DNA from: an uncultured Candidatus Saccharibacteria bacterium
Lineage (GTDB): Bacteria > Patescibacteriota > WWE3 > UBA101185 > UBA10185
NCBI GenBank assembly: GCA_964490125.1
Contig: CAZBAJ010000006.1
Coordinates: forward strand, 1 to 60,144
Length of the DNA stretch: 60,144 nucleotides
Direction of reading: 5' to 3'
The translations under genes were made by a program, and so were the position numbers. Below are positions 4,513 to 14,950 of the stretch, one piece after another. Under the pieces are notes generated by a model that saw nothing but the letters and a program-made list of their open reading frames with translations, made no database searches and was not told the DNA's origin. Each line of letters opens with the position of its first letter. Position 1 is the stretch's first letter.

Positions 4513-4695
4513 ATGGATAAAATAATCTTGACTAAAGGTGGCACCCCATTTGCTACGCTAAAAGCCTCCAGAGAAGAAAAAAGAAAGCTACTTGCAAACT
4601 GCGCCGGTGCTTGGGCTAATACAGAGCTAGATAGCGATAAGTTTTGGGCTAAACCGTTGGTCAGAAAGTCCAAGAAGGCTATACCTAAATTATAA
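4513..4695 (+). CDS. Short antitoxin (Phd/YefM-like, N-terminally reduced)
   Basis: 60 aa with an IILTKGGTPFA motif; its stop overlaps the start of the downstream PIN gene. Confidence 0.6.
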   Translation: MDKIILTKGGTPFATLKASREEKRKLLANCAGAWANTELDSDKFWAKPLVRKSKKAIPKL

Positions 4696-5144
4696 TGCTA
4701 AACCCGTATCTACTAGATACATCTATTATAGTGATGTGCTTGCGCAACAAGCTCTCATTTGATCATCTTTTGTCGACTTATGGGGGTAGCGACATAACAT
4801 CGTCCATGGTGTGCCTGGCGGAGTTGTATAGCGGTGTTTTTAAGTCAGCAAGAAAAGAAGAAAACGAGCAAAAAGTGCTGGAGTTTTTTAGTGGACTAGA
4901 TGAAGTCTTTGGATTAGATGTTACGGTTGTTAAAAAGTTTGGGGAGATAAAAAATCAACTAGAAAAAGCAGGTAACAACATAGAGGACTTTGATCTTTTG
5001 ATAGCGGCCACTTGTCTAGCACATGGTTGCGTTTTGATTACATTAAATACTAAGCATTTTGAACGGGTTCCAAACCTAGCCACGGTTACGCCAAAGTTAC
5101 CATCTTTATCTTATGCACAAATGACGAGGTTTGGTAGGGTTTAA
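4695..5144 (+). CDS. vapC: VapC-family PIN ribonuclease toxin
   Basis: YLLDTSII, SSMVCLAELYSG, DFDLLIAATCL, LITLNTKHF motifs. Confidence 0.9.
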   Translation: MLNPYLLDTSIIVMCLRNKLSFDHLLSTYGGSDITSSMVCLAELYSGVFKSARKEENEQKVLEFFSGLDEVFGLDVTVVKKFGEIKNQLEKAGNNIEDFDLLIAATCLAHGCVLITLNTKHFERVPNLATVTPKLPSLSYAQMTRFGRV

Positions 5145-5219: not shown

Positions 5220-6734
5220 ATGCCCGCTGGTAAAAAACTTGCCTTACTCACCTTACTAACAGCTTTTTCTTTAGCAACTTTCTGTGTCACAGCATTGGCA
5301 ATTAATACCAAGTTTAATGGCACGACGGGGAAGATACGGGCGATAGGGGAAACGGGGATGGTGGACAAAATAGGGGAGGTGGCAGGACTTGAAACCACCT
5401 CGATGGGTCAGGGCATTTTAGAAGACCAAGTGGCTTGGCAATATACCCAACAAACGCCAGATTACACCGCCTCTTTTGCCGTCACCCAGCAACAAACCAT
5501 AGTCAAACTCCAAAAAGCAAATTTTACGGCAATTTTTAGCCAAAATTTGCAAAACCCCACTCTCCAAAGGGTGTACGATAAGGACAGTCAAGATAATTAT
5601 GACAACCAAACCAATCAGACTGGTCAACTAGAAAAAATCCAAAAAACCCAACAAGTCCACCCAAAGTACATTTTTACCGATACTGTCACCAACACTCAAT
5701 ATGTCTACCACATAACGCCCCAAGGTCTAAAAGAAGACATTATTTTTTCAAGTCGGCCAACCGCGCTATTTTTACCGCTTACTGTGCAAGCGCCGGGTTT
5801 AATTATGCAGTTTGACGACGGGGGGAAGCCTGTTTTTTACGACTCTGCCATGCAGGAGCAATTCCATTTAGAAGCGCCTTGGGCAAAGGACGCTAAGGGT
5901 AGCCAAACCACCGCTTTGTTTTATGCCCAGGCAGAACCGTCAAAAGACCCTAGTGTTAATAACCTTTCTTTGGTATTAGATACCGCGTGGTTTGCCGACC
6001 CGGCTAGAGTCTACCCGGTAATAGTGGATCCCATTGTTTTTTTTAGGGGTATTAATTTGCGCGGGGTTAATGTTAACCGCATTCCTCCAACCACCTGTAC
6101 AGCTTATACCGGTTGCGGTGAGGGTTTTGATATTACCTGCGTTCACACTAAATATAACGGTGTGGCACCTGTGGCAAAAACCGTAATTTATAAAACAGTG
6201 CAATCAAATTTAACAGGTACCAATATGTGCTGGCTGGCTCAAAATTTAGGGGCTACAGATCAAGCAAGCTCTGCTACGGACAATGACGAAGACTCCGCCG
6301 GTTGGTACTTCCAGTTTAACCGCAAACAAGGGTTTAAACATACCACCACCAGAACTCCCGCCACCACTTGGATACCAAGCATAAGTGAAAGCGCAAATTG
6401 GGCGGATGCCCAAAACCCTTGCAAACTGGAACTGGGCACAGATTGGCGGTTGCCTACCTCCACGGAGTGGCAAACGGCTGACGCTAATGGTGAGGTTGGC
6501 GGATGGGATAATTATAACGAGACTTACGCGTCCCCCCTAAAACTCCATGCAACCGGCTACATCGATAGCTCCTCTGGAGCCCTCGCCAATCGCGGTAGCT
6601 TCGGCAGCTACTGGAGTAGTACCCAGCACTCTGCTACTAACGGGTACTACCTCAGCTTCGCCAGTGGCAACAGCAACCTGAGTGGCAACAGTAAGGCCCG
6701 CGGTTTTCCCGTCAGGTGCCTTAGGAATCTCTAA
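5220..6734 (+). CDS. DGR target protein 1: N-terminal signal/TM segment, shared scaffold domain, C-terminal FISUMP-like CLec domain containing VR1
   Basis: CWLAQNLGA...WRLPT...YWSST...PVRCL motifs; the last ~60 codons align to TR. Confidence 0.9.
   Translation: MPAGKKLALLTLLTAFSLATFCVTALAINTKFNGTTGKIRAIGETGMVDKIGEVAGLETTSMGQGILEDQVAWQYTQQTPDYTASFAVTQQQTIVKLQKANFTAIFSQNLQNPTLQRVYDKDSQDNYDNQTNQTGQLEKIQKTQQVHPKYIFTDTVTNTQYVYHITPQGLKEDIIFSSRPTALFLPLTVQAPGLIMQFDDGGKPVFYDSAMQEQFHLEAPWAKDAKGSQTTALFYAQAEPSKDPSVNNLSLVLDTAWFADPARVYPVIVDPIVFFRGINLRGVNVNRIPPTTCTAYTGCGEGFDITCVHTKYNGVAPVAKTVIYKTVQSNLTGTNMCWLAQNLGATDQASSATDNDEDSAGWYFQFNRKQGFKHTTTRTPATTWIPSISESANWADAQNPCKLELGTDWRLPTSTEWQTADANGEVGGWDNYNETYASPLKLHATGYIDSSSGALANRGSFGSYWSSTQHSATNGYYLSFASGNSNLSGNSKARGFPVRCLRNL
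6548..6722 (+). repeat. DGR variable repeat VR1
   Basis: Ungapped 175-bp alignment to TR 11761-11935: 15 mismatches at TR adenines plus 5 non-adenine mismatches confined to 6552-6598. Confidence 0.95.
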
Positions 6735-6806
6735 CATGGTTGGTAGCGTACCTCTTAGTCCCGCCAAAGGCGGGACCTTGATTTATTTGTCAATTTGACT
6801 ATTTTG
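6723..6806 (+). repeat. 84-bp tail after VR1 (IMH, stop codon, hairpin), identical to 10622-10705
   Basis: Base-for-base identity AGGAATCTCTAA...GACTATTTTG. Confidence 0.95.
6758..6776 (+). promoter_or_regulatory. DGR target-recognition hairpin after VR1
   Basis: GTCCCGCC-AAA-GGCGGGAC, perfect 8-bp stem 35 nt after the VR end; absent after TR. Confidence 0.85.
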
Positions 6807-6852: not shown

Positions 6853-6928
6853 TGTAAGAGCGGAAGGCGTGTACCCCAAAATGCCAAAAATCAATGTTTA
6901 CAATTAAAATAAAACCCGCTTTTGGCGG
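6853..6928 (+). repeat. Direct repeat, left flank of NYN module
   Basis: 6853-6904 matches 7623-7674 at 49/52; similarity continues to 6928/7693 with a 5-nt indel. Confidence 0.9.
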
Positions 6929-6930
6929 AC
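6911..6930 (-). terminator. Probable intrinsic terminator of NYN gene
   Basis: Minus strand CCGC-CAAAA-GCGG-GTTTTATTTT immediately after the NYN stop. Confidence 0.5.
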
Positions 6931-6931
6931 T

Positions 6932-7537
6932 TTAAGGTGAGTATGACTTGACGACATCTGCATCGTCAATGAGTATATTTTTACTCGTGGTGTATATCAG
7001 ACCCTTGTTGGGAGAGCTCTTGAAACCCAGATATACCACTTGGATTCCTCGTGCAGTAGCTTCTTTAATAGCGGGCTGAAGGTCGGAATCAGAACTGCAG
7101 AGTATAACAGTGGTCACCGCTTTGTCGCAAGCCGCTAATACTAAATCTACAGCGATTTTCACATCCACACCTTTTTCATTAAAAACATAGTGTGGATTAT
7201 TAGCCGTTAATGCTTTGCCGACCGTACTGGCTCTAACACTACCGGAAATGATGTACTTGTAACCCTTTTTTTCCAAAGTAGTTTTTAAAATACGCTGGAT
7301 TTTAATTAACTCCATCGACTTGTTCTTAAATGCTGGATGGAGCTGGATTTTTGCAGAATAATACCTATGCTCTTTAATTTTATAGTTGGCTAAAACGGTG
7401 GTAAATAATTTTACGATATCGATATTCAAGATGGTTTTGCTTGATACTGTAATACCGGCACCTCTTAAAACGCCCGTTACTTTGTGTCTAAAATTTTCTC
7501 CGTCTATGAACAGGAAGTTTGTATTTGGTATGGTCAT
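6932..7537 (-). CDS. NYN/LabA-DUF88 (PIN-like) ribonuclease
   Basis: FIDGENF, EKGVDVKIAVDL, SSDSDLQPAI motifs. Confidence 0.9.
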   Translation of the reverse strand: MTIPNTNFLFIDGENFRHKVTGVLRGAGITVSSKTILNIDIVKLFTTVLANYKIKEHRYYSAKIQLHPAFKNKSMELIKIQRILKTTLEKKGYKYIISGSVRASTVGKALTANNPHYVFNEKGVDVKIAVDLVLAACDKAVTTVILCSSDSDLQPAIKEATARGIQVVYLGFKSSPNKGLIYTTSKNILIDDADVVKSYSP

Positions 7538-7544
7538 ATTACAT

Positions 7545-7584
7545 AAAACCCCGCCGAGCGTTAAGCATAGGCGGGGCGTTGATA
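7545..7584 (-). ncRNA. Putative short terminated leader/antitoxin RNA upstream of NYN
   Basis: Between the promoter and the ATG, minus strand CCCCGCC-14 nt-GGCGGGG followed by TTTT. Confidence 0.5.
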
Positions 7585-7589
7585 GCTAT

Positions 7590-7618
7590 CTTATATCCTA
7601 GTTTTATCTTAAAGTCAA
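7590..7618 (-). promoter_or_regulatory. sigma70 promoter of NYN module
   Basis: Minus strand TTGACT (7618-7613)-17 nt-TATAAG (7595-7590). Confidence 0.75.
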
Positions 7619-7622
7619 GTTT

Positions 7623-7693
7623 TGTAAGGGCGGAAGGTATGTACCCCAAAATGCCAAAAATCAATGTTTACAATCAAAACCCACTTTTGGAGG
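7623..7693 (+). repeat. Direct repeat, right flank of NYN module
   Basis: Copy of 6853-6928, period 770 bp. Confidence 0.9.
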
Positions 7694-10633
7694 TTTTTTG
7701 CTATACTTATGTTAATGCCTAAAGTCAAAATAAAATTTATAGGACTGGCAGTAGTAACTGCTTTAATTATTGCCTTGATGTTTGCGTTTGTAGGTGTAGG
7801 GCTTGGGCTAGTAGGTAAAAATTTGCCTTTTGCCCGGTTCAATACTATCTTTGGGTTTAAACAGGGCATTTTTGACGATCCAAGAAAAGATAAAAACCTT
7901 ACCACCGATCAAATAAATGCCTTGTCTCTCCTGTCGTCAAACTACTTACAAACAGAGGTTGTCTCCAGCGGTAATACAACAATAACCTTTGCCACCACAC
8001 AAGATGCCGTCCACACCCGCATTAAGGAACCTAACTTTGAGGGTCTATTTATAGAACCCATGAATCAGCCAAAAATGGAGGTTTTGGGAAGTCAGTCAGA
8101 AAATCAGGTGGACAATCGCGACGACAATCAAACGGACAAAAAATCAGTCAACCAGTATGTTTTTACGGACAGTCAAACGGGGACTAAATTTGTCTATACA
8201 CTAAAAGAAGACGAGTTGAAGCAGGACATTATATTGCCCCAAAGTCCTCAAGCCAGCCAGTTTACGGTTTATGTTGTAACAAAAGGTATGGAAGTTGATA
8301 TTGATCAAAAGGGCAGGGCGGTTTTTGCGGACGCGCAAGGGCTTGCGCGGTTTATTTTAATTGCGCCGTGGGCAAAAGACGCGGGCGGTAGTGAAACCAA
8401 AAAGCTTTCTTATAAACTAAACCAGGCAATTTTGTCGCAGGAAGACTTAGCAAGCAGTACGACTTTAGCGGATGGGGCGGGTGTCGCAACAAAAGCAACA
8501 AATATACCCAATACAGTTAAGGACGAGCAACTTGGCGGGGGATTTTCTAAATCGTTAGACACCCAAAATGTCCAAAAATTAGTGGCAGAAGGAAGTCAGC
8601 TGTTTAACCTTGAACTTGTGGTGGATGAAGAGTGGTTAAAAAGTCCACAAAGGGTTTATCCCATAACCATAGACCCCAGCGTGCAAATTGGTACACCGCT
8701 TAATTATTCCCAGCAGTCCAAATACTGTCCGCCCGGCAATACAGAAACAAATTGTGATGCGCTATACCAGCCCGCGCCACTAGCCGAGTATTATTTTGAC
8801 GACGCCACGGGTACTACAGTTAAGGACTCTACCGCCAACGGTTATACGGGCACTTTTACGGGTAGCGGAACCGGTGGTACTACATGGACACGCCAGGGCA
8901 AAATTAACTTTGCCGGGCTTTTTAACGGCACAGACGACTTTGTGGATGTAGGCACAGGTCCTACTGGCATAAAAAGCGTGGGTTTTTGGGTGTATCCCGC
9001 CACCACCACGGAATATTTTGTAGACTTAAACGGCTCCGCTTATATTTGGGCAAACGCGGGCACGCTAACGGCAACAGGCTTTACCAGCCCGACTGTTTAT
9101 ATTAACGGCGTTAAAGCAACAACCATTGAGGCAAACAAGTGGCAGTATGTTGCGGTAACTTCTGCCACCGCTGTGGACGCCACAGATTTAGATTTAGGAC
9201 GACTAGAAGGCACGGATTATTTTGCCGGCAGACTTGACCACGCAAGGTTTTATAACTATGTAAGGACGCCAGCGCAGGTAGCGTGGGATTTTAACGCCGG
9301 CGCGCCTGTAACTTGGTACAAATTTAATGAAAACACAGGTACTGCTATTGGCGACTGGGGCGTTGGGGGGGATGGTTACCGTGGTAATAACTTAACTTTA
9401 ACCGTGGGAGCCGGGGGAACTTATGATACCGCAACCCAAGTTTGGGCAAACGGCAATCCGGGTAAAATTGCCATCTCTATGGATTTAGACGGCACAGACG
9501 ACTACGCTTCTACCGCCAATGTGGCACTGCTTGCTTCCAATTCTACTACTTACACTAATTTATCTTGGGGGGCGTGGGTTAAACCTAGGATAACCGTTAC
9601 CCGTACAATAATCCATAAAAATAATGAGTTTAGGTTAAGGCTAACGGATGTTTCTGTGCCATCTTGTCAAATATACGCAAGTAGCGCATGGCAGACGGGG
9701 GCGGTTTCCGGTGGCGTAATTCCAACAAATTCATGGTCACACATATTATGCGCTTACGACGGGGCAAATATAAAAGTGTATGTTAACGGGGTCTTGCGTG
9801 GTACACAGCCGTTAACAAACGCGGTAACTTCTACCAGCGCTACTGCCATAAATGTAGGACGGGACAGCGGTGGTAGCGAGTATTTTAGTGGGGCAATTGA
9901 TGAGGCCCGCGTGTACTCATACGCGTTAACACCTATCCAAGCCAAAACTGCTAAAAACGATGGCATTGTAGCCTATGGGCGCGCCCCCGTTACCGCGGAA
10001 CTTCCACAAAGTTTTATTTGTGGCAAACCCATTACTGTTCAACATGTGGCTAGTAACGGCGTTGCCCCGGTAGATAAAACCGTAAGTTACGGTACAGTGC
10101 TTACGGGTATTGGCGGTACGGGTGACAAATGCTGGATTACCCAAAATTTAGGGGCTACTAACCAAGCAAGCACGGTTAGTGACGCTACGGAGGCGTCCGC
10201 AGGGTGGTACTGGCAGTTTAACCGCAAGCAGGGCTACAAGCACGACGGTACTACCAGAACACCAGCTACTGCCTGGAATGCCACCGAGGATAACACTTAT
10301 ACGGGCTGGGACCCGGCAAAAGATCCATGCGCTTTAGAATTAGGTGCGGGTTGGAGGTTACCCACTTCCGCGGAGTGGACTGTAGCAGATGTTCCGTGGA
10401 CAACTTGGCAAACTCCCGGGCCCTGGGATTTACCATTAAGAATTCATGCAGCCGGCTACCTCGATAGCTCCTCTGGAGCCCTTACCTATCGTGGTACCTT
10501 CGGCTCCTACTGGAGTAGTACCCAGTCCTCTGCTACTAACGGGTACCGCCTCCGCTTCGGCAGTGGCTACAGCACCCTGGATTTCTTCAGTAAGGCCAAC
10601 GGTTTGCCCGTCAGGTGCCTTAGGAATCTCTAA
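7664..10633 (+). CDS. DGR target protein 2: TM anchor, shared scaffold, LamG/ConA-like domains, C-terminal FISUMP-like CLec domain with VR2; true start probably ATG 7715
   Basis: LamG-like motifs (WQYVAVT, FAGRLDHARFYNY, WSHILCAYDG, FSGAIDEARVYSYAL); C-terminus aligns to TR; TATACT box 7 nt before ATG 7715. Confidence 0.9.
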   Translation: MFTIKTHFWRFFAILMLMPKVKIKFIGLAVVTALIIALMFAFVGVGLGLVGKNLPFARFNTIFGFKQGIFDDPRKDKNLTTDQINALSLLSSNYLQTEVVSSGNTTITFATTQDAVHTRIKEPNFEGLFIEPMNQPKMEVLGSQSENQVDNRDDNQTDKKSVNQYVFTDSQTGTKFVYTLKEDELKQDIILPQSPQASQFTVYVVTKGMEVDIDQKGRAVFADAQGLARFILIAPWAKDAGGSETKKLSYKLNQAILSQEDLASSTTLADGAGVATKATNIPNTVKDEQLGGGFSKSLDTQNVQKLVAEGSQLFNLELVVDEEWLKSPQRVYPITIDPSVQIGTPLNYSQQSKYCPPGNTETNCDALYQPAPLAEYYFDDATGTTVKDSTANGYTGTFTGSGTGGTTWTRQGKINFAGLFNGTDDFVDVGTGPTGIKSVGFWVYPATTTEYFVDLNGSAYIWANAGTLTATGFTSPTVYINGVKATTIEANKWQYVAVTSATAVDATDLDLGRLEGTDYFAGRLDHARFYNYVRTPAQVAWDFNAGAPVTWYKFNENTGTAIGDWGVGGDGYRGNNLTLTVGAGGTYDTATQVWANGNPGKIAISMDLDGTDDYASTANVALLASNSTTYTNLSWGAWVKPRITVTRTIIHKNNEFRLRLTDVSVPSCQIYASSAWQTGAVSGGVIPTNSWSHILCAYDGANIKVYVNGVLRGTQPLTNAVTSTSATAINVGRDSGGSEYFSGAIDEARVYSYALTPIQAKTAKNDGIVAYGRAPVTAELPQSFICGKPITVQHVASNGVAPVDKTVSYGTVLTGIGGTGDKCWITQNLGATNQASTVSDATEASAGWYWQFNRKQGYKHDGTTRTPATAWNATEDNTYTGWDPAKDPCALELGAGWRLPTSAEWTVADVPWTTWQTPGPWDLPLRIHAAGYLDSSSGALTYRGTFGSYWSSTQSSATNGYRLRFGSGYSTLDFFSKANGLPVRCLRNL
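10447..10621 (+). repeat. DGR variable repeat VR2
   Basis: Ungapped 175-bp alignment to TR: 21 mismatches at TR adenines (all in AAY codons) and one T>G. Confidence 0.97.
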
Positions 10634-10705
10634 CATGGTTGGTAGCGTACCTCTTAGTCCCGCCAAAGGCGGGACCTTGATTTATTTGTCAATTTGACTA
10701 TTTTG
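10622..10705 (+). repeat. 84-bp tail after VR2, identical to 6723-6806
   Basis: Base-for-base identity. Confidence 0.95.
10657..10675 (+). promoter_or_regulatory. DGR target-recognition hairpin after VR2
   Basis: GTCCCGCC-AAA-GGCGGGAC. Confidence 0.85.
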
Positions 10706-10768
10706 TTTTTTTCCCCTACAATGCCCGCGGTTAGAGATAAACGCTAGAGCTCGCGTAACCACGGTTAC
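10694..10768 (+). repeat. 75-bp direct repeat (promoter plus leader hairpin), left flank of DUF3800 module
   Basis: 73/75 identical to 11545-11619; contains TTGACT-17 nt-TACAAT and GTAACC-AC-GGTTAC. Confidence 0.92.
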
Positions 10769-10794
10769 ATTTAACTGATGCCCCAAAAGTCACC

Positions 10795-11445
10795 ATGGAA
10801 AATGCCACAAAACCTAAAAGAATTTATATATTCCTTGACGAATCCGGCACCCTTCCCGATCCCAAAGATACCGTAGTTATTGTTGCTGCGGTGGGAACAG
10901 TTCAACCACAGCAACTATCTAGGGTAACCACTAAGACCAGAAGCCACTTACAAAAAGGTAAAAATAAGTCATCGGAAATTAAATTTTATAATGCTGGGGA
11001 TAAAACTCGCATTACCTTTCTTAAAGAACTTATGGAAAAAGACATCCAACTGTTTACTTTAACTATTGAAAAGCCGGGTCAAAGTATACTCGATACACCA
11101 GAAAACTTTGCTCTTTTATGTTGGCTTCTTTTAGAAGAGTGTTTTTTATTTTACGGTCAAGAAAATTACGAGGTAGTTTTTGACAAACACTTTCACAAGA
11201 AAACAGACAGAGAGGTTTTTGATGCTGGGCTTATGGAGTTAATCGGTAGAAAGCTCTCTATCATCCATGCGGATAGTGTCAATGACACGCGGGTAAATAC
11301 TGCCGATATGGTGGCAGGTAGCATTCTATACTATAGAACCGGGAAAAATAAACAGTTTTACGAGATGATTAAAGAAAAAATTATTAGCGAAAAAGTTTTG
11401 CACTGGAAAGTGGCAAAGAAAAGTCTATTTAGGTACGGAAAGTAA
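10795..11445 (+). CDS. DUF3800 domain protein (putative nuclease)
   Basis: N-terminal IFLDESG and C-terminal DS...TADMVAGSI motifs. Confidence 0.8.
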   Translation: MENATKPKRIYIFLDESGTLPDPKDTVVIVAAVGTVQPQQLSRVTTKTRSHLQKGKNKSSEIKFYNAGDKTRITFLKELMEKDIQLFTLTIEKPGQSILDTPENFALLCWLLLEECFLFYGQENYEVVFDKHFHKKTDREVFDAGLMELIGRKLSIIHADSVNDTRVNTADMVAGSILYYRTGKNKQFYEMIKEKIISEKVLHWKVAKKSLFRYGK

Positions 11446-11492
11446 CAAAATCTCGTCGAACCGATGCAAGCATCCATCCAAACGAGATAAGT
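11446..11492 (-). ncRNA. Putative small structured RNA convergent on the DUF3800 gene
   Basis: ATCTCGT/ACGAGAT 7-bp stem (11450-11488) enclosing GATGC-AA-GCATC; T4 tract follows on the minus strand; own promoter upstream. Confidence 0.6.
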
Positions 11493-11498
11493 GTGATA

Positions 11499-11527
11499 AT
11501 TCTATCAAGTGGATACATTAAAGTCAA
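11499..11527 (-). promoter_or_regulatory. sigma70 promoter for the DUF3800-adjacent sRNA
   Basis: Minus strand TTGACT (11527-11522)-17 nt-TAGAAT (11504-11499). Confidence 0.75.
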
Positions 11528-11544
11528 ATTTTAGTCTACACTCC

Positions 11545-11619
11545 TTGACTATTTTGTTTTTTTCTCCTACAATGCCCGCGGTTATAGATAAACGCTAGAG
11601 CTCGCGTAACCACGGTTAC
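11545..11619 (+). repeat. 75-bp direct repeat, right flank of DUF3800; contains the promoter of the TR-avd-RT transcript
   Basis: TTGACT (11545)-17 nt-TACAAT (11568-11573); 73/75 identical to 10694-10768. Confidence 0.92.
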
Positions 11620-11760
11620 GCTTGGAGAGCGTGTTAGAGTGTGGTTACCCACCCCGCTTTAGCGGGGTTAAAAAAGAAGACTACGCGTCTGGAAACTTAC
11701 CCGTAGTCTCGCAAAATTTGGTGCAACAGCCAAACATTAGTGGTGACTTTAGCGCTAGGT

Positions 11761-11935
11761 TGCAGCCGGCTACCTCAATAGCTCCTCTGGAGCCCTTACC
11801 AATCGTGGTACCAACGGCAACTACTGGAGTAGTACCCAGAACTCTGCTACTAACGGGTACAACCTCAACTTCAACAGTGGCAACAGCAACCTGAATAACA
11901 ACAGTAAGGCCAACGGTTTTCCCGTCAGGTGCCTT
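11761..11935 (+). repeat. DGR template repeat TR
   Basis: 49 adenines and 15 AAY codons in the VR frame; in-frame TAG directly upstream (non-coding); 3' end GGAGACTCTAA differs from VR AGGAATCTCTAA (IMH*/IMH). Confidence 0.97.
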
Positions 11936-12020
11936 GGAGACTCTAAGTCTTTAGCCCCTGCCTCCTGTCCAAGTCCTACCAAATTCTGTCCACCAAAATA
12001 TTATTATTAACTAAAAGCTT

Positions 12021-12404
12021 ATGGCACTATATACAGCCTTACCCGTCTATAAAAGAACCTACCAACTATTAATGGAGCTAATTACCACCTGCGCGCTTTT
12101 GCCCAGGCTGTACAAGCATACTTTTGGTGAACGCATTCAGGAGGAAGCCATAGAAATGGTCCTTGATATTTACAAATCCAACTCTTCTTACAGCAAGGTG
12201 GACTATATTGGCAAAGCCCGTGAGCATGTAGAAACCTTGCGCCTGCTTATAAGGCTTTTGCACGACACCAAGAAGATCACCCAAAAGCGCATGATTTACC
12301 TAAATACTTATATAGAGGACATTAGTAAGCAGTTAACGGGTTGGCAAAAAAGTAGTGGGACTATAAAGCCGTCCGATTTACCGGACTCGTTATCTACAAA
12401 TTAA
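12021..12404 (+). CDS. avd: Avd-like four-helix-bundle DGR accessory protein
   Basis: LPVYK...LPRLYKHTFGERI...LRLLIRLL...SKQLTGW pattern; located between TR and RT. Confidence 0.88.
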   Translation: MALYTALPVYKRTYQLLMELITTCALLPRLYKHTFGERIQEEAIEMVLDIYKSNSSYSKVDYIGKAREHVETLRLLIRLLHDTKKITQKRMIYLNTYIEDISKQLTGWQKSSGTIKPSDLPDSLSTN

Positions 12405-12412
12405 GACCAAAT

Positions 12413-13800
12413 ATGTCAAATATCGACAGACATACCAATCTAACCAACCACGCCAACCATACGCATATGCCTAATATGCCTACTAACAAGTTTGCTAATA
12501 CACCTAATACATCCAATACATCCGATACACCCAATTCAACCGCTTCTGGAGATCCCGCGGATTCTCTCATAAACGATCTTTTTACCGCGTACTATTGCGC
12601 CCGCAAAAACAAACGCAACACTTTTAATCAGCTAAAGTTTGAGTACGACTATGAAAGTAATTTGTTTAAACTTTACCGGCTTATTTTAAGTCGTACCTAT
12701 AAACCCTTGCCGGAAATTGCTTTTATTGTAAATAAGCCCGTAAAGCGGGAAATTTTTGCCGCGGATTTTAGAGACAGAGTCGTCCACCACCTGATATTTA
12801 ATTGTTTAAACCCTATTTTAGAAAAGTATTTTATTAACGACTGTTATTCTTGTCGGATAGGGAAGGGGACCTCTTACGGAATTAAACGCGCAGTTAAGCA
12901 TATGCGGGCGTCATCAAATAATTATACGGAGGATTGCTATGTTCTAAAGTTGGATATTCAGGGTTATTTTATGAGTATAAATAAGACTATTTTGTATGGG
13001 GCGGTTAAGGGTTATTTGGCTAAAGAAAAGGCTAAAAGGGGTGTTTTACCGTTTGACGAGGATTTGGTGGACTTTTTGCTAAAGGTGATTATTTTTAACG
13101 ATCCCACCAAAAATTGCCGATTTAAGGGTTGGCCACAGGACTGGTGCGGTCTACCAAAGTCCAAGAGCTTGTTTTATGCCGAGCCATGTTGCGGTTTGCC
13201 TATTGGTAATTTAACCAGTCAGCTGTTTGGCAATGTTTATTTAACAGGGTTTGACCATTTTGTTAAGCGAAATTTAGCCATTAACTATTACGGTCGGTAT
13301 GTGGACGACTTTGTTTTAATGCATACGGACGAGCAGTATTTAAATTCGCTTATACCCGTAATGTCTAGTTTTTTAGTGTCGGTTTAAAACTTACCTTGCA
13401 TCCTCATAAGGTTTATTTTCAACATTATGCCAGAGGACTAAAGTTTTTAGGCGTTATTATTAAGCCTGGCAGAATTTATATTGGGTCACGGGTTAAGGGG
13501 AACTTTTACCTCGCTATTATGGAGCAAAATAGGGTTTTAGATCAGCCGGGTTTGTGTCGGATCGAGTTTTCCCGTCAAGAGGAGTTTTCTTCACAATCGT
13601 TAGTTTTTAAGCAACGCAAGGATTGTAACACGGTTAATGTTGTTGCTCCTTCCGTGACGGAAATAAAGGGTTTTATTAGCGTCATGAATTCTTACCTAGG
13701 GTTGATGAAACACTATCAAACCTATAAATTGTGTCGTAAGTTTGTGCTTAAAAACCTAGACCCCTGTTGGTGGGATTATGTTTACTTAAAACCTTTGTAA
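12413..13800 (+). pseudogene. DGR reverse transcriptase split by one -1 frameshift (ORFs 12413-13387 and 13369-13800 in the -1 frame); ~462 aa if joined
   Basis: RDRVVHH, LKLDIQGYF, GLPIGNLTSQLFGN and YVDD in the first ORF; LTLHPHK...GLKFLG and NSYLGLMKH in the second. Confidence 0.9.
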
Positions 13801-14022
13801 GAGTGGGATGCGTCTACCCCAGAACGAGATAACATTACCAAACCTCCAAAATATCCAGTAAAGTAACCTTTAACGATCTGCGCACACCGGCTGGATAGAT
13901 GTTGTAAGATTAAAACCCTACACTTCCCGTATTTAAGGTAGAAACCACAAAGAACCCTCTGCGGATCTTCTCTTGAATGTCCTTCGAGTCCTTATGCCGA
14001 TAACTCTTAGCTAGGGTCGTCT

Positions 14023-14900
14023 TAGATATTAATTAGATGCCACCTAAATAGAGGTAAAGTTTTGCAACTGATCTTTTGTTTATGCAGAAGAATAAAATAT
14101 GCCCCAAAGGGCACATATTTAAACGAACTAAGTCCCGTATTCCGTCAATTTAAGATTGTTACTAGAGCAAATAAAGTATGACAAATGCTTGTTAGTTCAC
14201 TTATAAAAATACGCGAACTATTTCCGTCCTGTAATAACAACAAAACTCACATAATGTTAAAAAATAAGTGAACTATTTTGGGAGCCTGGTTTTAAGGTTG
14301 TCAAGATAACCTAAAAACACAGACACATAAAAACATATTCAAACACCCAAACAAACATCTAAATACAAAAACCTCCACCCAGCCACCCAAGATAAACAAA
14401 CACTCATATAAATACATACATACATACATACATACATACATACATACATACATACATACATACATAAACAGACAGATTATTAGACGGGTAATAAATAAGT
14501 AAATACAAAAATACAAACTAACCCAAACACCCAACAGCATAAACAACAAAAACCAAAATTAAATTAGAAAACTAAAACACCAAAACTAAAACACCTAAAA
14601 ATATAACTATTACTGCCAATATTAAACACTCCACCGCCGTGACCGTGATAACAGCCACCGTAGCCTATGATATTTAAGAACTAGGGTAGTTCGTTAATTA
14701 TTTTAGAAAACTAGGTATTTGCTTTAACAACAGCTTAAAAATAGTTCGCAAATAAATATAACTGAACAATGTCACAAATGTCATACAGTTAACGCCGTAG
14801 TAAAAGCCTTAAATCTATAAAAAGCAGTTTATTGTTCGTTTAAATATAGGGTCTAAGACCTAATAAAAAAAGAACCTGCGACGACAAAAAATACTATAAT
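14023..14900 (-). repeat. Long non-coding repeat element, copy A (inverted relative to B and C)
   Basis: Both arms match 16393-17255 in reverse complement; 14-bp inverted repeat 14115-14128/14834-14847; seven TAGTTC/GAACTA boxes. Confidence 0.88.
14413..14464 (+). repeat. (TACA)13 microsatellite
   Basis: 13 perfect tetramer units counted. Confidence 0.97.
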
Positions 14901-14950
14901 ATCCAGCGCGAAGGGTATAACATGTAAGTTGATTTTGCTAAAATAACCCT

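What the first reader, a model, noticed from the sequence alone, without database searches (positions are those of the whole stretch)
10694..11619. DUF3800 gene has captured a duplicate of the DGR-RNA promoter and leader
Seen: the 75-bp repeat (73/75) contains TTGACT-17-TACAAT plus the first ~40 transcribed nucleotides with the GTAACC/GGTTAC hairpin; one copy drives DUF3800 and the other drives TR-avd-RT. Inference: DUF3800 is co-regulated with the retrohoming machinery, and its mRNA begins with the same 5' structure as the DGR RNA.
Basis: partly seen in the sequence, partly recalled or inferred. Interest (0 to 1): 0.65.

Follow-up and report, generated by a model that had tools for sequence, protein, structure and literature searches.

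The report
Promoter duplication flanking inserted DUF3800 cassette
A small gene cassette (an RNase H-like DUF3800 gene plus its own antisense small RNA) has landed inside a diversity-generating retroelement of a Patescibacteria (CPR) bacterium and is flanked by two copies of 75 bp of that element's promoter, so one copy probably drives the newcomer while the other still serves the retroelement; similar flanking duplications surround this cassette in about half of the other genomes checked.

Summary
Window 10694-10768 and 11545-11619 are a 75-nt direct repeat (73/75). It carries TTGACT-17-TACAAT plus about 40 nt downstream. Assembly graphs of eight public runs also support two copies.

Three related DGR loci without an intervening gene (L038, L039, L040) show that copy 2 and its downstream sequence are the native DGR promoter and leader. 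Copy 1 is the duplicate. It sits 26 nt upstream of a DUF3800 ORF that has no promoter of its own.

Two claims fail:
- The conserved leader structure spans 11592-11632, past the repeat end, so copy 1 holds only half of it.
- The link is not DGR-specific. In 12 of 25 Patescibacteria DUF3800 loci the gene is bracketed by locus-specific 24-81-nt direct repeats (up to 146 nt when extended). These usually copy the 5' end of the neighbouring gene. None of the 25 GTDB loci has an RT nearby.

The inserted unit is about 750 bp. It holds a promoterless RNase H2-like DUF3800 gene and a convergent ~50-nt structured sRNA with its own promoter and terminator; that sRNA is absent from Rfam. The neighbouring NYN gene has the same kind of flanks.

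Best reading: an insertion scar that doubles as promoter capture. Promoter activity and the duplication mechanism remain untested.

The parts
10694..10768 (+). Repeat copy 1: duplicated DGR promoter (-35 at 10694-10699, -10 at 10717-10722) plus about 40 nt of truncated leader. It is fused on its left to the VR-downstream hairpin module. Presumed promoter of DUF3800.
11545..11619 (+). Repeat copy 2: native DGR promoter (-35 at 11545-11550, -10 at 11568-11573) plus the first about 40 nt of the DGR leader.
   Evidence: Homologous to the L038, L039 and L040 promoters; TTGAC and TACAAT are invariant across the four
10783..11531 (.). Inserted cassette, defined by the limits of DNA homology to the closest relative L001, which lies in an unrelated context.
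   Evidence: alignment
10795..11445 (+). DUF3800 ORF, 216 aa, RNase H2-like fold, with no promoter of its own.
   Evidence: Pfam PF12686 at 24.6 bits against a cut-off of 21. AF2 model pLDDT 91.4. Best PDB hits are RNase HII/H2, E = 5e-6. Invariant D15, E16, E61, D100, D130, D171
11444..11492 (-). Convergent small RNA of about 50 nt. It has a 7-bp outer stem (11450-11456 with 11482-11488), a conserved internal loop UGGAUGG/GGUUC, a 4-bp inner hairpin and a U-rich tail. It ends at the DUF3800 stop codon.
   Evidence: fold z = -2.56
11499..11527 (-). Promoter of the sRNA: TTGACT-17-TAGAAT with an extended -10 TG.
   Evidence: the same promoter is conserved in the other loci
11580..11760 (+). DGR 5' leader upstream of TR. 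The first conserved structure is at 11592-11632; a 37-nt block within it is identical in L038.
11761..11935 (+). Template repeat (TR).
   Evidence: 22 of 23 TR/VR1 mismatches fall at TR adenines
10447..10621 (+). Variable repeat VR1 at the 3' end of target gene 7664-10633 (Laminin_G_3 plus a Fib_succ_major-type C-terminus).
10657..10675 (+). GC-rich hairpin GTCCCGCCAAAGGCGGGAC followed by a T-rich tract. It is terminator-like and/or the DGR VR-downstream hairpin. An identical copy lies at 6758-6776 behind VR2.
12021..12404 (+). avd (bAvd family).
12413..13800 (+). DGR reverse transcriptase, read in two frames joined at T_TTT_TTA (13369-13375).
6853..7700 (.). Parallel case. The NYN nuclease gene (6932-7537, minus strand) has its own TTGACT-17-TATAAG promoter (7617-7589). 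It is bracketed by direct repeats 6853-6909 and 7623-7679 (57 nt, 93%, extending further with an indel). These repeats copy the 5'UTR, ATG and first codons of target gene 7664.
5220..6734 (+). Second DGR target paralogue, with VR2 at about 6548-6722 and the same 3' hairpin module.

Best explanation
The 75-bp repeat is the pair of flanking duplications around an inserted cassette of about 750 bp. The cassette holds a promoterless DUF3800 (RNase H2-like) gene and a convergently transcribed structured sRNA of about 50 nt with its own promoter and terminator. It sits in the promoter-proximal leader of a Patescibacteria DGR.

The ancestral order was: target gene with VR, hairpin, TTGAC(A/T)-17-TACAAT, structured leader, TR, avd, RT. 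After the insertion, the downstream copy (11545-11619) remains the DGR's own promoter and leader start. The upstream copy (10694-10768) is a duplicate that keeps the whole sigma-70-type promoter. It now lies 26 nt in front of DUF3800, so it most likely transcribes that gene. The 40 nt of leader it carries is a truncated passenger.

Shown here:
- the repeat itself and its presence in many samples;
- relatives with the uninterrupted site;
- the limits and content of the cassette;
- the same kind of locus-specific flanking duplication at many other DUF3800 loci and at NYN genes;
- continued A-directed VR diversification in strains that carry the insertion.

Inferred:
- that both promoter copies fire;
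- how the duplication arose. Candidates are homology-facilitated or Campbell-type recombination of a cassette that carries a piece of the target's 5' end, or fill-in of widely staggered breaks;
- what DUF3800 and its sRNA do. A selfish or defence-type nuclease with an antisense RNA partner is the leading guess.
For: (1) Repeat and copy number.

(2) Uninterrupted sites. L040 and L039 run VR, hairpin, CTTGATTTATTT..CAATTTGACAATTTTG..TACAAT, leader, TR with nothing inserted. L038 is the same with about 55 extra nt. L038 4209-4610 aligns to window 11545-11966 at 75.6%.

(3) Cassette limits. The closest DUF3800 (L001, 84% aa) shares DNA homology only from about 10783 to 11531. It lies between unrelated genes and has no repeat.

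(4) Generality. In 12 of 25 DUF3800 loci the gene is bracketed by locus-specific direct repeats: 24-81 nt at 86-100% identity (94-100% in ten loci) as scored, and 146 nt in three copies (69-100% to the reference copy) in L017 when extended. Among other genes of similar size in the same loci the rate is 24 of 172. For repeats of 50 nt or more it is 7 of 25 against 6 of 172 (Fisher p = 2e-4). Three of those six controls are themselves DUF3800 or NYN genes.

(5) What is duplicated. The repeats contain the start codon or 5' end of the neighbouring gene: L002 LamG, L017 atpG, L019 MazG-like, L029 MTAP. In L022 the repeat lies immediately upstream of the start of an IVS/Avd-like gene.

(6) L017 has two DUF3800 cassettes in tandem at the same atpG codon-35 site. 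The three copies of the first 35 codons differ only synonymously.

(7) No own promoter. The distance from the upstream repeat to the ATG is -1 to 26 nt in six loci. In loci without flanking repeats the ORF abuts or overlaps the upstream gene.

(8) The promoter hexamers are invariant in four DGR lineages while the spacer varies.

(9) The DGR still works with the insertion. 22 of 23 TR/VR1 mismatches fall at TR adenines. 13 of 14 VR differences between the window and strain X4, which also carries DUF3800, fall at TR-A positions.

(10) The sRNA. Pairing is 81.9% on the minus strand against 74.3% on the plus strand, and 0 of 500 shuffles reach the observed covariation. Model R1 finds it exactly once per locus, including 4 loci not used to build it.
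Against: - There are no transcript 5' ends for either promoter. The only RNA-type runs give one low-depth contig over TR and one ambiguous contig over 10713-10863.
- No recognised transposase, integrase or terminal inverted repeats lie in the cassette, and no empty-site or excised form was seen among strains of this species. Mobility is therefore inferred from comparison, not observed.
- About half of the DUF3800 loci show no flanking repeat, including the DUF3800-V-type cassette of L040.
- DUF3800-type genes recur in this DGR clade. Window, L038 and L040 represent two independent events with different subfamilies and positions. This leaves room for a functional tie to these loci.
Confidence: 0.72

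Rival explanations
1. Adaptive recruitment. DUF3800 is a working DGR accessory, for example an RNase H that removes the TR-RNA from the cDNA. The promoter duplication was selected to co-express it with TR-avd-RT, and the shared 5' leader is bound by the same factors.
For: - RNase H2-like fold.
- Retron type VII pairs or fuses an RT with DUF3800 (PMC7736814). A weak PADLOC match to DUF3800_VII was found.
- DGR RTs lack an RNase H domain (background knowledge).
- Three related DGR loci (window, L038, L040) all have a DUF3800-type gene within about 1 kb of the target gene.
- The promoters are nearly identical.
Against: - 0 of 25 GTDB loci of this DUF3800 family have an RT or Avd within 10 kb.
- The DUF3800 genes in L038 and L040 belong to another subfamily, carry another RNA (Rfam DUF3800-V) and occupy another position, upstream of the target.
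- Similar duplications of unrelated 5' ends flank DUF3800 at atpG, MTAP, MazG-like and LamG genes.
- Copy 1 lacks the 3' half of the conserved leader structure.
- DUF3800 is also frequent beside LamG genes that have no DGR.
Confidence: 0.15
2. The repeat is above all a recombination substrate. The cassette moves as a circle or a linear fragment that carries a stretch of the target's 5' end. It enters by Campbell-type or homology-facilitated illegitimate recombination and leaves by repeat-by-repeat recombination. Promoter capture would then be incidental. This rival concerns the origin of the repeat and overlaps with the best explanation.
For: - Repeat lengths of 24-146 nt are in the range used by RecA-type recombination (background knowledge).
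- The repeats are patchy and long in L026 (about 180 nt) and L035 (about 210 nt).
- In L017 and L029 the two copies differ by synonymous changes or a different start region, as expected if one copy came from another lineage's functional gene.
- The cassette ends are not sharply defined.
- ComEA/ComEC competence genes occur in these genomes.
Against: - No circular or excised junction and no empty-site contig was seen in 8 runs.
- In the window the copies are 97% alike and give no donor/recipient signal.
- This model does not explain how the first cassette-plus-homology unit arose.
Confidence: 0.3
3. The conserved palindrome GTAACCACGGTTAC is a DNA operator. It was duplicated so that one repressor controls both units.
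For: The palindrome is perfect, lies at about +27 to +40 in both copies, and sits within a 37-nt block identical in L038.
Against: In L039 the changes are C-to-U on one arm only. These keep G-U pairing in RNA but break the DNA symmetry. L040 has one mismatch. The flanking outer stem shows a compensatory change (ACGCU/AGCGU against AAGCU/AGCUU). Both observations point to an RNA structure on the + strand. No regulator gene was identified nearby.
Confidence: 0.05
4. Assembly artefact: a single promoter was mis-assembled as two.
For: Short repeats near TR/VR repeats are a classic source of mis-joins.
Against: - Two diagnostic mismatches distinguish the copies.
- Independent unitig graphs in 8 runs show doubled depth on the shared stretch and unique contigs on all four flanks.
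- X2 has a single contig spanning 10853-11840.
Confidence: 0.01

Closest known systems
DUF3800-associated RNA motifs (DUF3800-I to -XI; Weinberg et al. 2017, PMC5737381; Rfam DUF3800-I..X)
   Same: A conserved structured small RNA lies next to a DUF3800 gene, on the opposite strand, and ends in a Rho-independent-terminator-like stem plus U-run. L038 and L040 carry a true Rfam DUF3800-V RNA in the same convergent layout.
   Different: The RNA here (outer stem, UGGAUGG/GGUUC internal loop, 4-bp hairpin; about 50 nt) matches no Rfam 15 family at E up to 10. In the text read here that paper does not mention flanking duplications or mobility of the gene-RNA unit, and it says the authors had no specific functional hypothesis.
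Retron type VII (RT plus DUF3800, fused or adjacent; Mestre et al. 2020, PMC7736814)
   Same: An RNase H2-like DUF3800 protein is encoded beside a bacterial reverse transcriptase.
   Different: Here the RT is a DGR RT with TR, VR and Avd, not a retron. The pairing is not conserved across the DUF3800 family. The gene arrived as a separate cassette with its own sRNA.
Target-site duplications and promoter capture by insertion sequences and transposons
   Same: Direct repeats of target sequence flank an insert, relatives show the single-copy site, and the insert's expression depends on a host promoter.
   Different: The repeats are 24-146 nt, variable and sometimes patchy, against 2-15 nt of fixed length for known IS or transposon families (background knowledge). 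There are no terminal inverted repeats and no recognised transposase.
Integrative elements that carry a replacement end of their target gene (att duplications at tRNA genes); Campbell-type or homology-facilitated integration
   Same: Long direct repeats flank the insert, the interrupted gene or unit stays intact because its end is duplicated, and the copies can differ as donor and recipient alleles do (L017, L029).
   Different: No integrase is present. Many different targets are used. The 5' ends or promoters of genes are duplicated rather than tRNA 3' ends.
Bordetella phage BPP-1-type DGR (mtd-VR, IMH, downstream hairpin, avd, TR, brt)
   Same: TR/VR with adenine-specific differences, Avd, RT, and a GC hairpin shortly after VR (comparison from background knowledge).
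   Different: The order is target, TR, avd, RT, with a conserved structured leader of about 180 nt upstream of TR. There are two target paralogues. The RT needs a -1 frameshift. A foreign cassette splits VR from TR.

Membership tests
Diversity-generating retroelement (context of the repeat) | TR/VR pair whose differences fall at TR adenines | tested here: met
   22 of 23 mismatches (VR1) and 16 of 21 (VR2) within 11761-11935 are at TR-A
Diversity-generating retroelement (context of the repeat) | Reverse transcriptase and Avd accessory gene adjacent to TR | tested here: met
   RVT_1 and bAvd Pfam hits. Thousands of RT homologues were found; among the near relatives whose contigs were fetched (L008, L010/L011, L039-L041) an Avd gene lies beside the RT
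Sigma-70-type promoter (both repeat copies) | -35 and -10 hexamers close to consensus with a 17-nt spacer | tested here: met
   TTGACT-17-TACAAT, 10 of 12, in both copies. The hexamers are invariant in L038, L039 and L040 while the spacer varies
Sigma-70-type promoter (both repeat copies) | Transcription start mapped downstream | not testable with these tools
   Only two RNA-type runs hold fragments, as contigs without 5' ends
Transposon/IS target-site duplication | Direct repeats flank the insert, and the sequence is single-copy at the uninterrupted site in relatives | tested here: met
   (L038, L039, L040)
Transposon/IS target-site duplication | Short fixed-length duplication, defined element ends (TIRs) and an element-encoded transposase | tested here: not met
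   Repeat lengths of 24-146 nt vary by locus, the ends are not conserved, and no transposase domain is present
DUF3800 (PF12686), RNase H-like | Pfam match above the gathering score; N-terminal DE motif | tested here: met
   24.6 bits against 21. D15 and E16 are invariant in 28 sequences
DUF3800 (PF12686), RNase H-like | RNase H2-like fold | tested here: met
   AF2 model pLDDT 91.4. The top 13 PDB hits are RNase HII/H2, E = 5e-6 to 9e-4, TM about 0.5
DUF3800 (PF12686), RNase H-like | Nuclease activity | not testable with these tools
Rfam DUF3800-I..X RNA families | Covariance-model match at or near the gathering score | tested here: not met
   No DUF3800-family hit in window 10400-14000 at E up to 10, nor in L001, L013, L014, L028, L033 or L034 at E up to 1. 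The same search does find DUF3800-V in L038 and L040
DUF3800-associated structured sRNA (as a kind) | Conserved structure with covariation next to DUF3800 genes, with its own promoter and terminator | tested here: met
Type I/III toxin-antitoxin module | Toxic protein neutralised by an adjacent antisense or structured RNA | not tested
   Only the layout (convergent sRNA overlapping or abutting the 3' end of a nuclease-like ORF) fits. Toxicity is unknown
Integron gene cassette | attC site and a nearby integron integrase | tested here: not met
   No integrase and no attC-like imperfect inverted repeat at the cassette ends

The most novel reading that the evidence does not exclude
DUF3800-plus-sRNA modules (and the similar NYN modules) are a so-far undescribed class of small mobile cassettes in Patescibacteria. 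Their RNase H-like or PIN-like nuclease, possibly directed by the partner sRNA or by R-loops at transcription start regions, would open the 5' ends of transcription units. Insertion would leave 25-150-bp target duplications, handing the promoterless nuclease gene a host promoter while keeping the host gene intact. In DGR loci the RNase H2-like enzyme may also act on the RT's RNA:cDNA products.
Probability: 0.15. Interest if true: 0.85.

Novelty: new variant of a known kind. Interest (0 to 1): 0.62.

Why it matters
For DGR biology:
- The comparison pins down the native promoter and a conserved, structured leader of about 180 nt upstream of TR in a CPR DGR clade.
- The element appears to tolerate a foreign gene between VR and TR.

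For the puzzle of DUF3800 and its many associated RNAs, open since 2017:
- It offers a concrete, testable picture: a promoterless RNase H2-like gene with a convergent, self-terminating sRNA.
- This unit behaves like a cassette, sits at the 5' ends of genes, and is often bracketed by long locus-specific duplications.

If those duplications reflect the insertion mechanism, this would be an unusual way for genes to enter very small genomes without destroying the genes they land in. It would also give a simple sequence signature (a gene 5' end present twice around a small nuclease gene) for finding more such insertions.

Tried and rejected
- Rfam on the window (gathering) and on 10400-14000 (E up to 10): nothing for the repeat, the leader or the sRNA.
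- Folding of the shared 40 nt and of the copy-1 leader: not better than shuffles. The 'shared 5' structure' idea was dropped.
- RNA runs. Only X20 (one 251-nt contig over TR, 11701-11951) and X25 (ambiguous library, a contig at 10713-10863) hold fragments. Neither gives 5' ends.
- Search for an empty-site (851-nt skip) or excised form in 8 DNA runs: none.
- The apparent TR-to-VR 'joint' in X25 is a VR variant that aligns to TR, not a junction.
- The 20-mer scan of metagenomes gave one chance hit inside a coding region (L037) and one real relative (L038).
- Viral contigs hold no relative of this DUF3800 family.
- No flanking repeat was found around the DUF3800-V cassette of L040. The test on L038 is limited by the contig end.
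- The sRNA model R1 does not hit the NYN cassette, the second DUF3800 of L017, or L039-L041. The RNA is specific to this DUF3800 subfamily.
- The operator reading of the palindrome was rejected in favour of RNA pairing.
- The literature search found no paper linking DUF3800 or NYN to mobility in Patescibacteria, and none linking DUF3800 to DGRs.
Full report
**1. The observation**

The window contains a DGR, arranged as follows.
- A 989-aa Laminin_G_3 / Fib_succ_major-type target gene lies at 7664-10633, with VR1 at 10447-10621.
- TR lies at 11761-11935, followed by avd (12021-12404) and an RT (12413-13800).
- Within the TR/VR1 overlap, 22 of 23 differences fall at TR adenines.
- Between VR1 and TR sits a 216-aa DUF3800 ORF (10795-11445; Pfam 24.6 bits against a cut-off of 21).

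The reported repeat is real: 10694-10768 and 11545-11619, 75 nt, 73/75 identical. Each half occurs exactly twice in the window, and no shuffle matched. Both copies read TTGACT-17-TACAAT.

The duplication is not an assembly error. In eight public metagenome runs from at least five studies, the unitigs break at the repeat edges. The shared stretch carries about double depth, and unique contigs link every flank. In four of those runs position 11585 reads G, as in copy 1, so the copies are even more alike there.

**2. Which copy is native**

A 20-mer from the repeat found a related DGR in a JGI metagenome, L038 (RT 68%, Avd 57%, target 55-69% identical). RT homologues led to two more, L040 and L039.

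In L040 and L039 the order is VR, GC hairpin, CTTGATTTATTT..CAATTTGACAATTTTG...TACAAT, leader, TR, avd, RT. Nothing is inserted. L038 is the same with about 55 extra nt.

Window copy 2 and everything downstream of it aligns to these leaders (L038 4209-4610 against window 11545-11966, 75.6%). Window copy 1 is fused on its left to the VR-hairpin module, exactly as the single promoter is in L039 and L040.

So the ancestral locus had one promoter directly behind the VR hairpin. In the window lineage the stretch from TTGACT to GGTTAC is now present twice, around an insert. TTGAC and TACAAT are invariant in all four lineages while the spacer varies, which supports a real promoter.

**3. The leader**

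The four DGR leaders share a structure at window 11592-11632.
- A 5-bp outer stem reads ACGCU/AGCGU in the window and AAGCU/AGCUU in the other three, a compensatory change.
- It encloses the 7-bp hairpin GCGUAAC-CACG-GUUACGC. L039 keeps the pairing through G-U pairs.
- Further pairings reach up to TR.
- A 37-nt block is identical in the window and L038.

The repeat ends at 11619, inside the 3' arm of the hairpin. Copy 1 therefore has a 5-bp remnant and no outer stem, and its leader folds no better than shuffled sequence (z = 0.15 to 0.44). The claim that the DUF3800 mRNA starts with the same structure as the DGR RNA is not supported.

**4. What was inserted**

The closest DUF3800 homologue, L001 (84% aa), lies between unrelated genes. 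It shares DNA homology with the window only from about 10783 to 11531: from about 10 nt before the ATG to about 85 nt past the stop. It has no repeat.

The 3' tail holds a hairpin that is more conserved than the coding sequence. Across 24 loci it has this form: A-run, 7-bp stem, GAACC, 4-bp hairpin, CCATCCA, stem. About 50-60 nt further on lies a T/AGTCAA box. Read on the minus strand, this is:
- a TTGACA/T-17-TAtAAT promoter (window 11527-11499, TTGACT-17-TAGAAT with an extended -10);
- a short leader;
- a stem-loop with conserved internal-loop sequences UGGAUGG and GGUUC;
- a U-run.

In other words it is a small RNA gene of about 50 nt, convergent with DUF3800, that ends at or inside the DUF3800 stop region. 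The evidence for it is as follows.
- Pairing is 81.9% on the minus strand against 74.3% on the plus strand, with many G-U pairs.
- The inner stem is 99% paired, with GC/AU and UA/CG swaps.
- 0 of 500 shuffles reach the observed covariation, and slid controls score far lower.
- A covariance model (R1) finds it exactly once per locus, always at the DUF3800 3' end. This includes four loci not used to build the model.
- It matches no Rfam family.

By contrast, L038 and L040 carry a different DUF3800 subfamily with a genuine Rfam DUF3800-V RNA in the same convergent layout, just upstream of their DGR target gene.

The protein models with high confidence (pLDDT 91.4), and its best solved-structure matches are RNase HII/H2. 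This agrees with the literature.

**5. The flanking duplication is a general feature**

Each DUF3800 locus was tested for direct repeats between its upstream and downstream flanks.

| Set | Repeats of 24 nt or more | Repeats of 50 nt or more |
|---|---|---|
| DUF3800 genes | 12 of 25 | 7 of 25 |
| Other genes of 450-1500 nt in the same loci | 24 of 172 | 6 of 172 |

- The repeats as scored are 24-81 nt at 86-100% identity (94-100% in ten of the twelve loci). They are patchy out to about 180-210 nt in L026 and L035.
- The sequences differ from locus to locus, so they come from the target and not from the element.
- Fisher's test for repeats of 50 nt or more gives p = 2e-4.
- Three of the six control hits are themselves a second DUF3800 gene (L017, 137 nt), an NYN gene (L020) and the window's NYN gene.

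The repeats usually contain the 5' end of the adjacent gene:
- the first codons of a LamG giant gene (L002);
- a MazG-like gene (L019);
- MTAP (L029);
- atpG (L017);
- in L022, the sequence immediately upstream of an IVS/Avd-like gene.

DUF3800 follows the upstream copy by only -1 to 26 nt in six loci. It therefore inherits the host promoter and often the host start codon.

L017 is the clearest case. Its order is atpG(1-35), DUF3800a with sRNA, atpG(1-35), DUF3800b, intact atpG. The three copies of the first 35 codons differ only by synonymous changes, including AGT against TCT for serine.

In the window, the NYN gene (6932-7537, minus strand, own promoter) is bracketed by repeats of 57 nt or more. 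These copy the 5'UTR, ATG and first codons of target gene 7664. A VapC toxin gene lies just upstream, at 4695-5144.

**6. Is DUF3800 tied to the DGR?**

Against a tie:
- None of the 25 GTDB loci of this family has an RT or Avd within 10 kb.
- The flanks elsewhere have nothing to do with DGRs.

For a tie:
- Two independent DUF3800 arrivals occur in this DGR clade (window; L038/L040).
- DUF3800 often sits next to LamG-type genes (8 of about 28 loci).
- Both small nuclease cassettes of the 60-kb window lie inside the DGR locus.

The simplest reading is that these variable surface-protein loci tolerate or attract such cassettes. A functional use of an RNase H-like enzyme by the RT cannot be excluded, and retron type VII is a precedent.

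The DGR stayed active after the insertion. VR differences between the window and strain X4, which also carries the cassette, fall at TR-A positions in 13 of 14 cases.

**7. Mechanism**

Shown:
- a single promoter-plus-leader became two copies around a cassette of about 750 bp;
- the downstream copy is the native one;
- the upstream copy keeps a full promoter in front of a gene that lacks one.

Inferred:
- Both promoters fire.
- DUF3800 transcripts may also read through into copy 2 and TR, because the sRNA stem has no U-run on the + strand.

The origin of the duplication is open.
- The synonymous-only divergence in L017, the different start region in L029, the patchy long repeats and the fuzzy cassette ends all favour recombination. 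The cassette would carry a piece of the target's 5' end and enter by a Campbell-type or homology-facilitated illegitimate event.
- Widely staggered breaks filled in after insertion remain possible.
- No transposase, integrase or terminal inverted repeats are present.

**8. Verdict**

It is wrong about a shared RNA structure, and a DGR-specific partnership is unsupported.

The repeat is best seen as an insertion scar that also serves as a captured promoter. It is one instance of a recurrent and, as far as this literature search shows, undescribed behaviour of DUF3800/sRNA and NYN cassettes in Patescibacteria.

Noticed in passing
window 13369-13375 (RT gene 12413-13800); also L008, L009, L038, L039, L040, L041: The DGR RT is split between two frames at a classic -1 slippery heptamer, T_TTT_TTA. 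The 0 frame stops at 13387, after the YVDD motif. The -1 frame continues with ...SVGLKLTLHPHKVYFQHY... The heptamer and the frame change are conserved in relatives whose RT is 52-96% identical to the window's, while a Bacteroidota-like relative (L010) is in one frame without it. This suggests programmed -1 frameshifting (or slippage-based phase variation) in a clade of CPR DGR RTs.
   Followed up: partly
window 6853-7700: The NYN-domain nuclease gene (6932-7537, minus strand, own TTGACT-17-TATAAG promoter) is bracketed by direct repeats of 57 nt or more (93%). These copy the 5'UTR, ATG and first codons of DGR target gene 7664. The same kind of flank occurs around an NYN gene in L020 (50 nt).
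   Followed up: partly
window 11444-11527 (minus strand) and 28 related loci: A new DUF3800-associated small RNA of about 50 nt has its own promoter and terminator and is convergent with the DUF3800 ORF. It shows strong covariation and is absent from Rfam 15. It is found once per locus in every complete gene of this DUF3800 subfamily.
   Followed up: yes
window 5220-6734 and 6758-6806: A second DGR target paralogue carries VR2 (about 6548-6722) and an identical copy of the VR-downstream hairpin module, including TTGACTATTTTG. The -10 box is missing there, so no promoter follows it.
   Followed up: partly
window 4695-5144: A VapC (PIN) toxin gene lies directly upstream of the first DGR target. 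Together with NYN and DUF3800, this puts three small nuclease-type genes inside about 7 kb of the DGR locus.
   Followed up: no
window 13792-14913: A segment of about 1.1 kb between the RT and the glycosyltransferase gene is replaced by 45 nt in the 96-98% identical strain L008. It contains (ACAT)n-like low-complexity arrays at 14313-14530 and no convincing ORF.
   Followed up: partly
L017 12607-13798: An unannotated 331-aa ORF sits behind atpG. It is followed by a second copy of the atpG C-terminal codons (82-nt direct repeat). Long flanking duplications in these genomes are therefore not limited to 5' ends or to DUF3800 and NYN genes. An IS200-like gene in L016 has 46-nt flanks.
   Followed up: no
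L038 273-1044 and L040 5546-6314: Related DGR loci carry a different DUF3800 subfamily gene with a convergent Rfam DUF3800-V RNA immediately upstream of the DGR target gene.
   Followed up: partly
window 11637-11649 and 11740-11752; L038, L039, L040: The invariant AGAGUGUGGUU in the DGR leader is predicted to pair with the sequence just upstream of TR. This would close a domain of about 100 nt that contains two hairpins. Only four sequences were available, so support is thin.
   Followed up: partly
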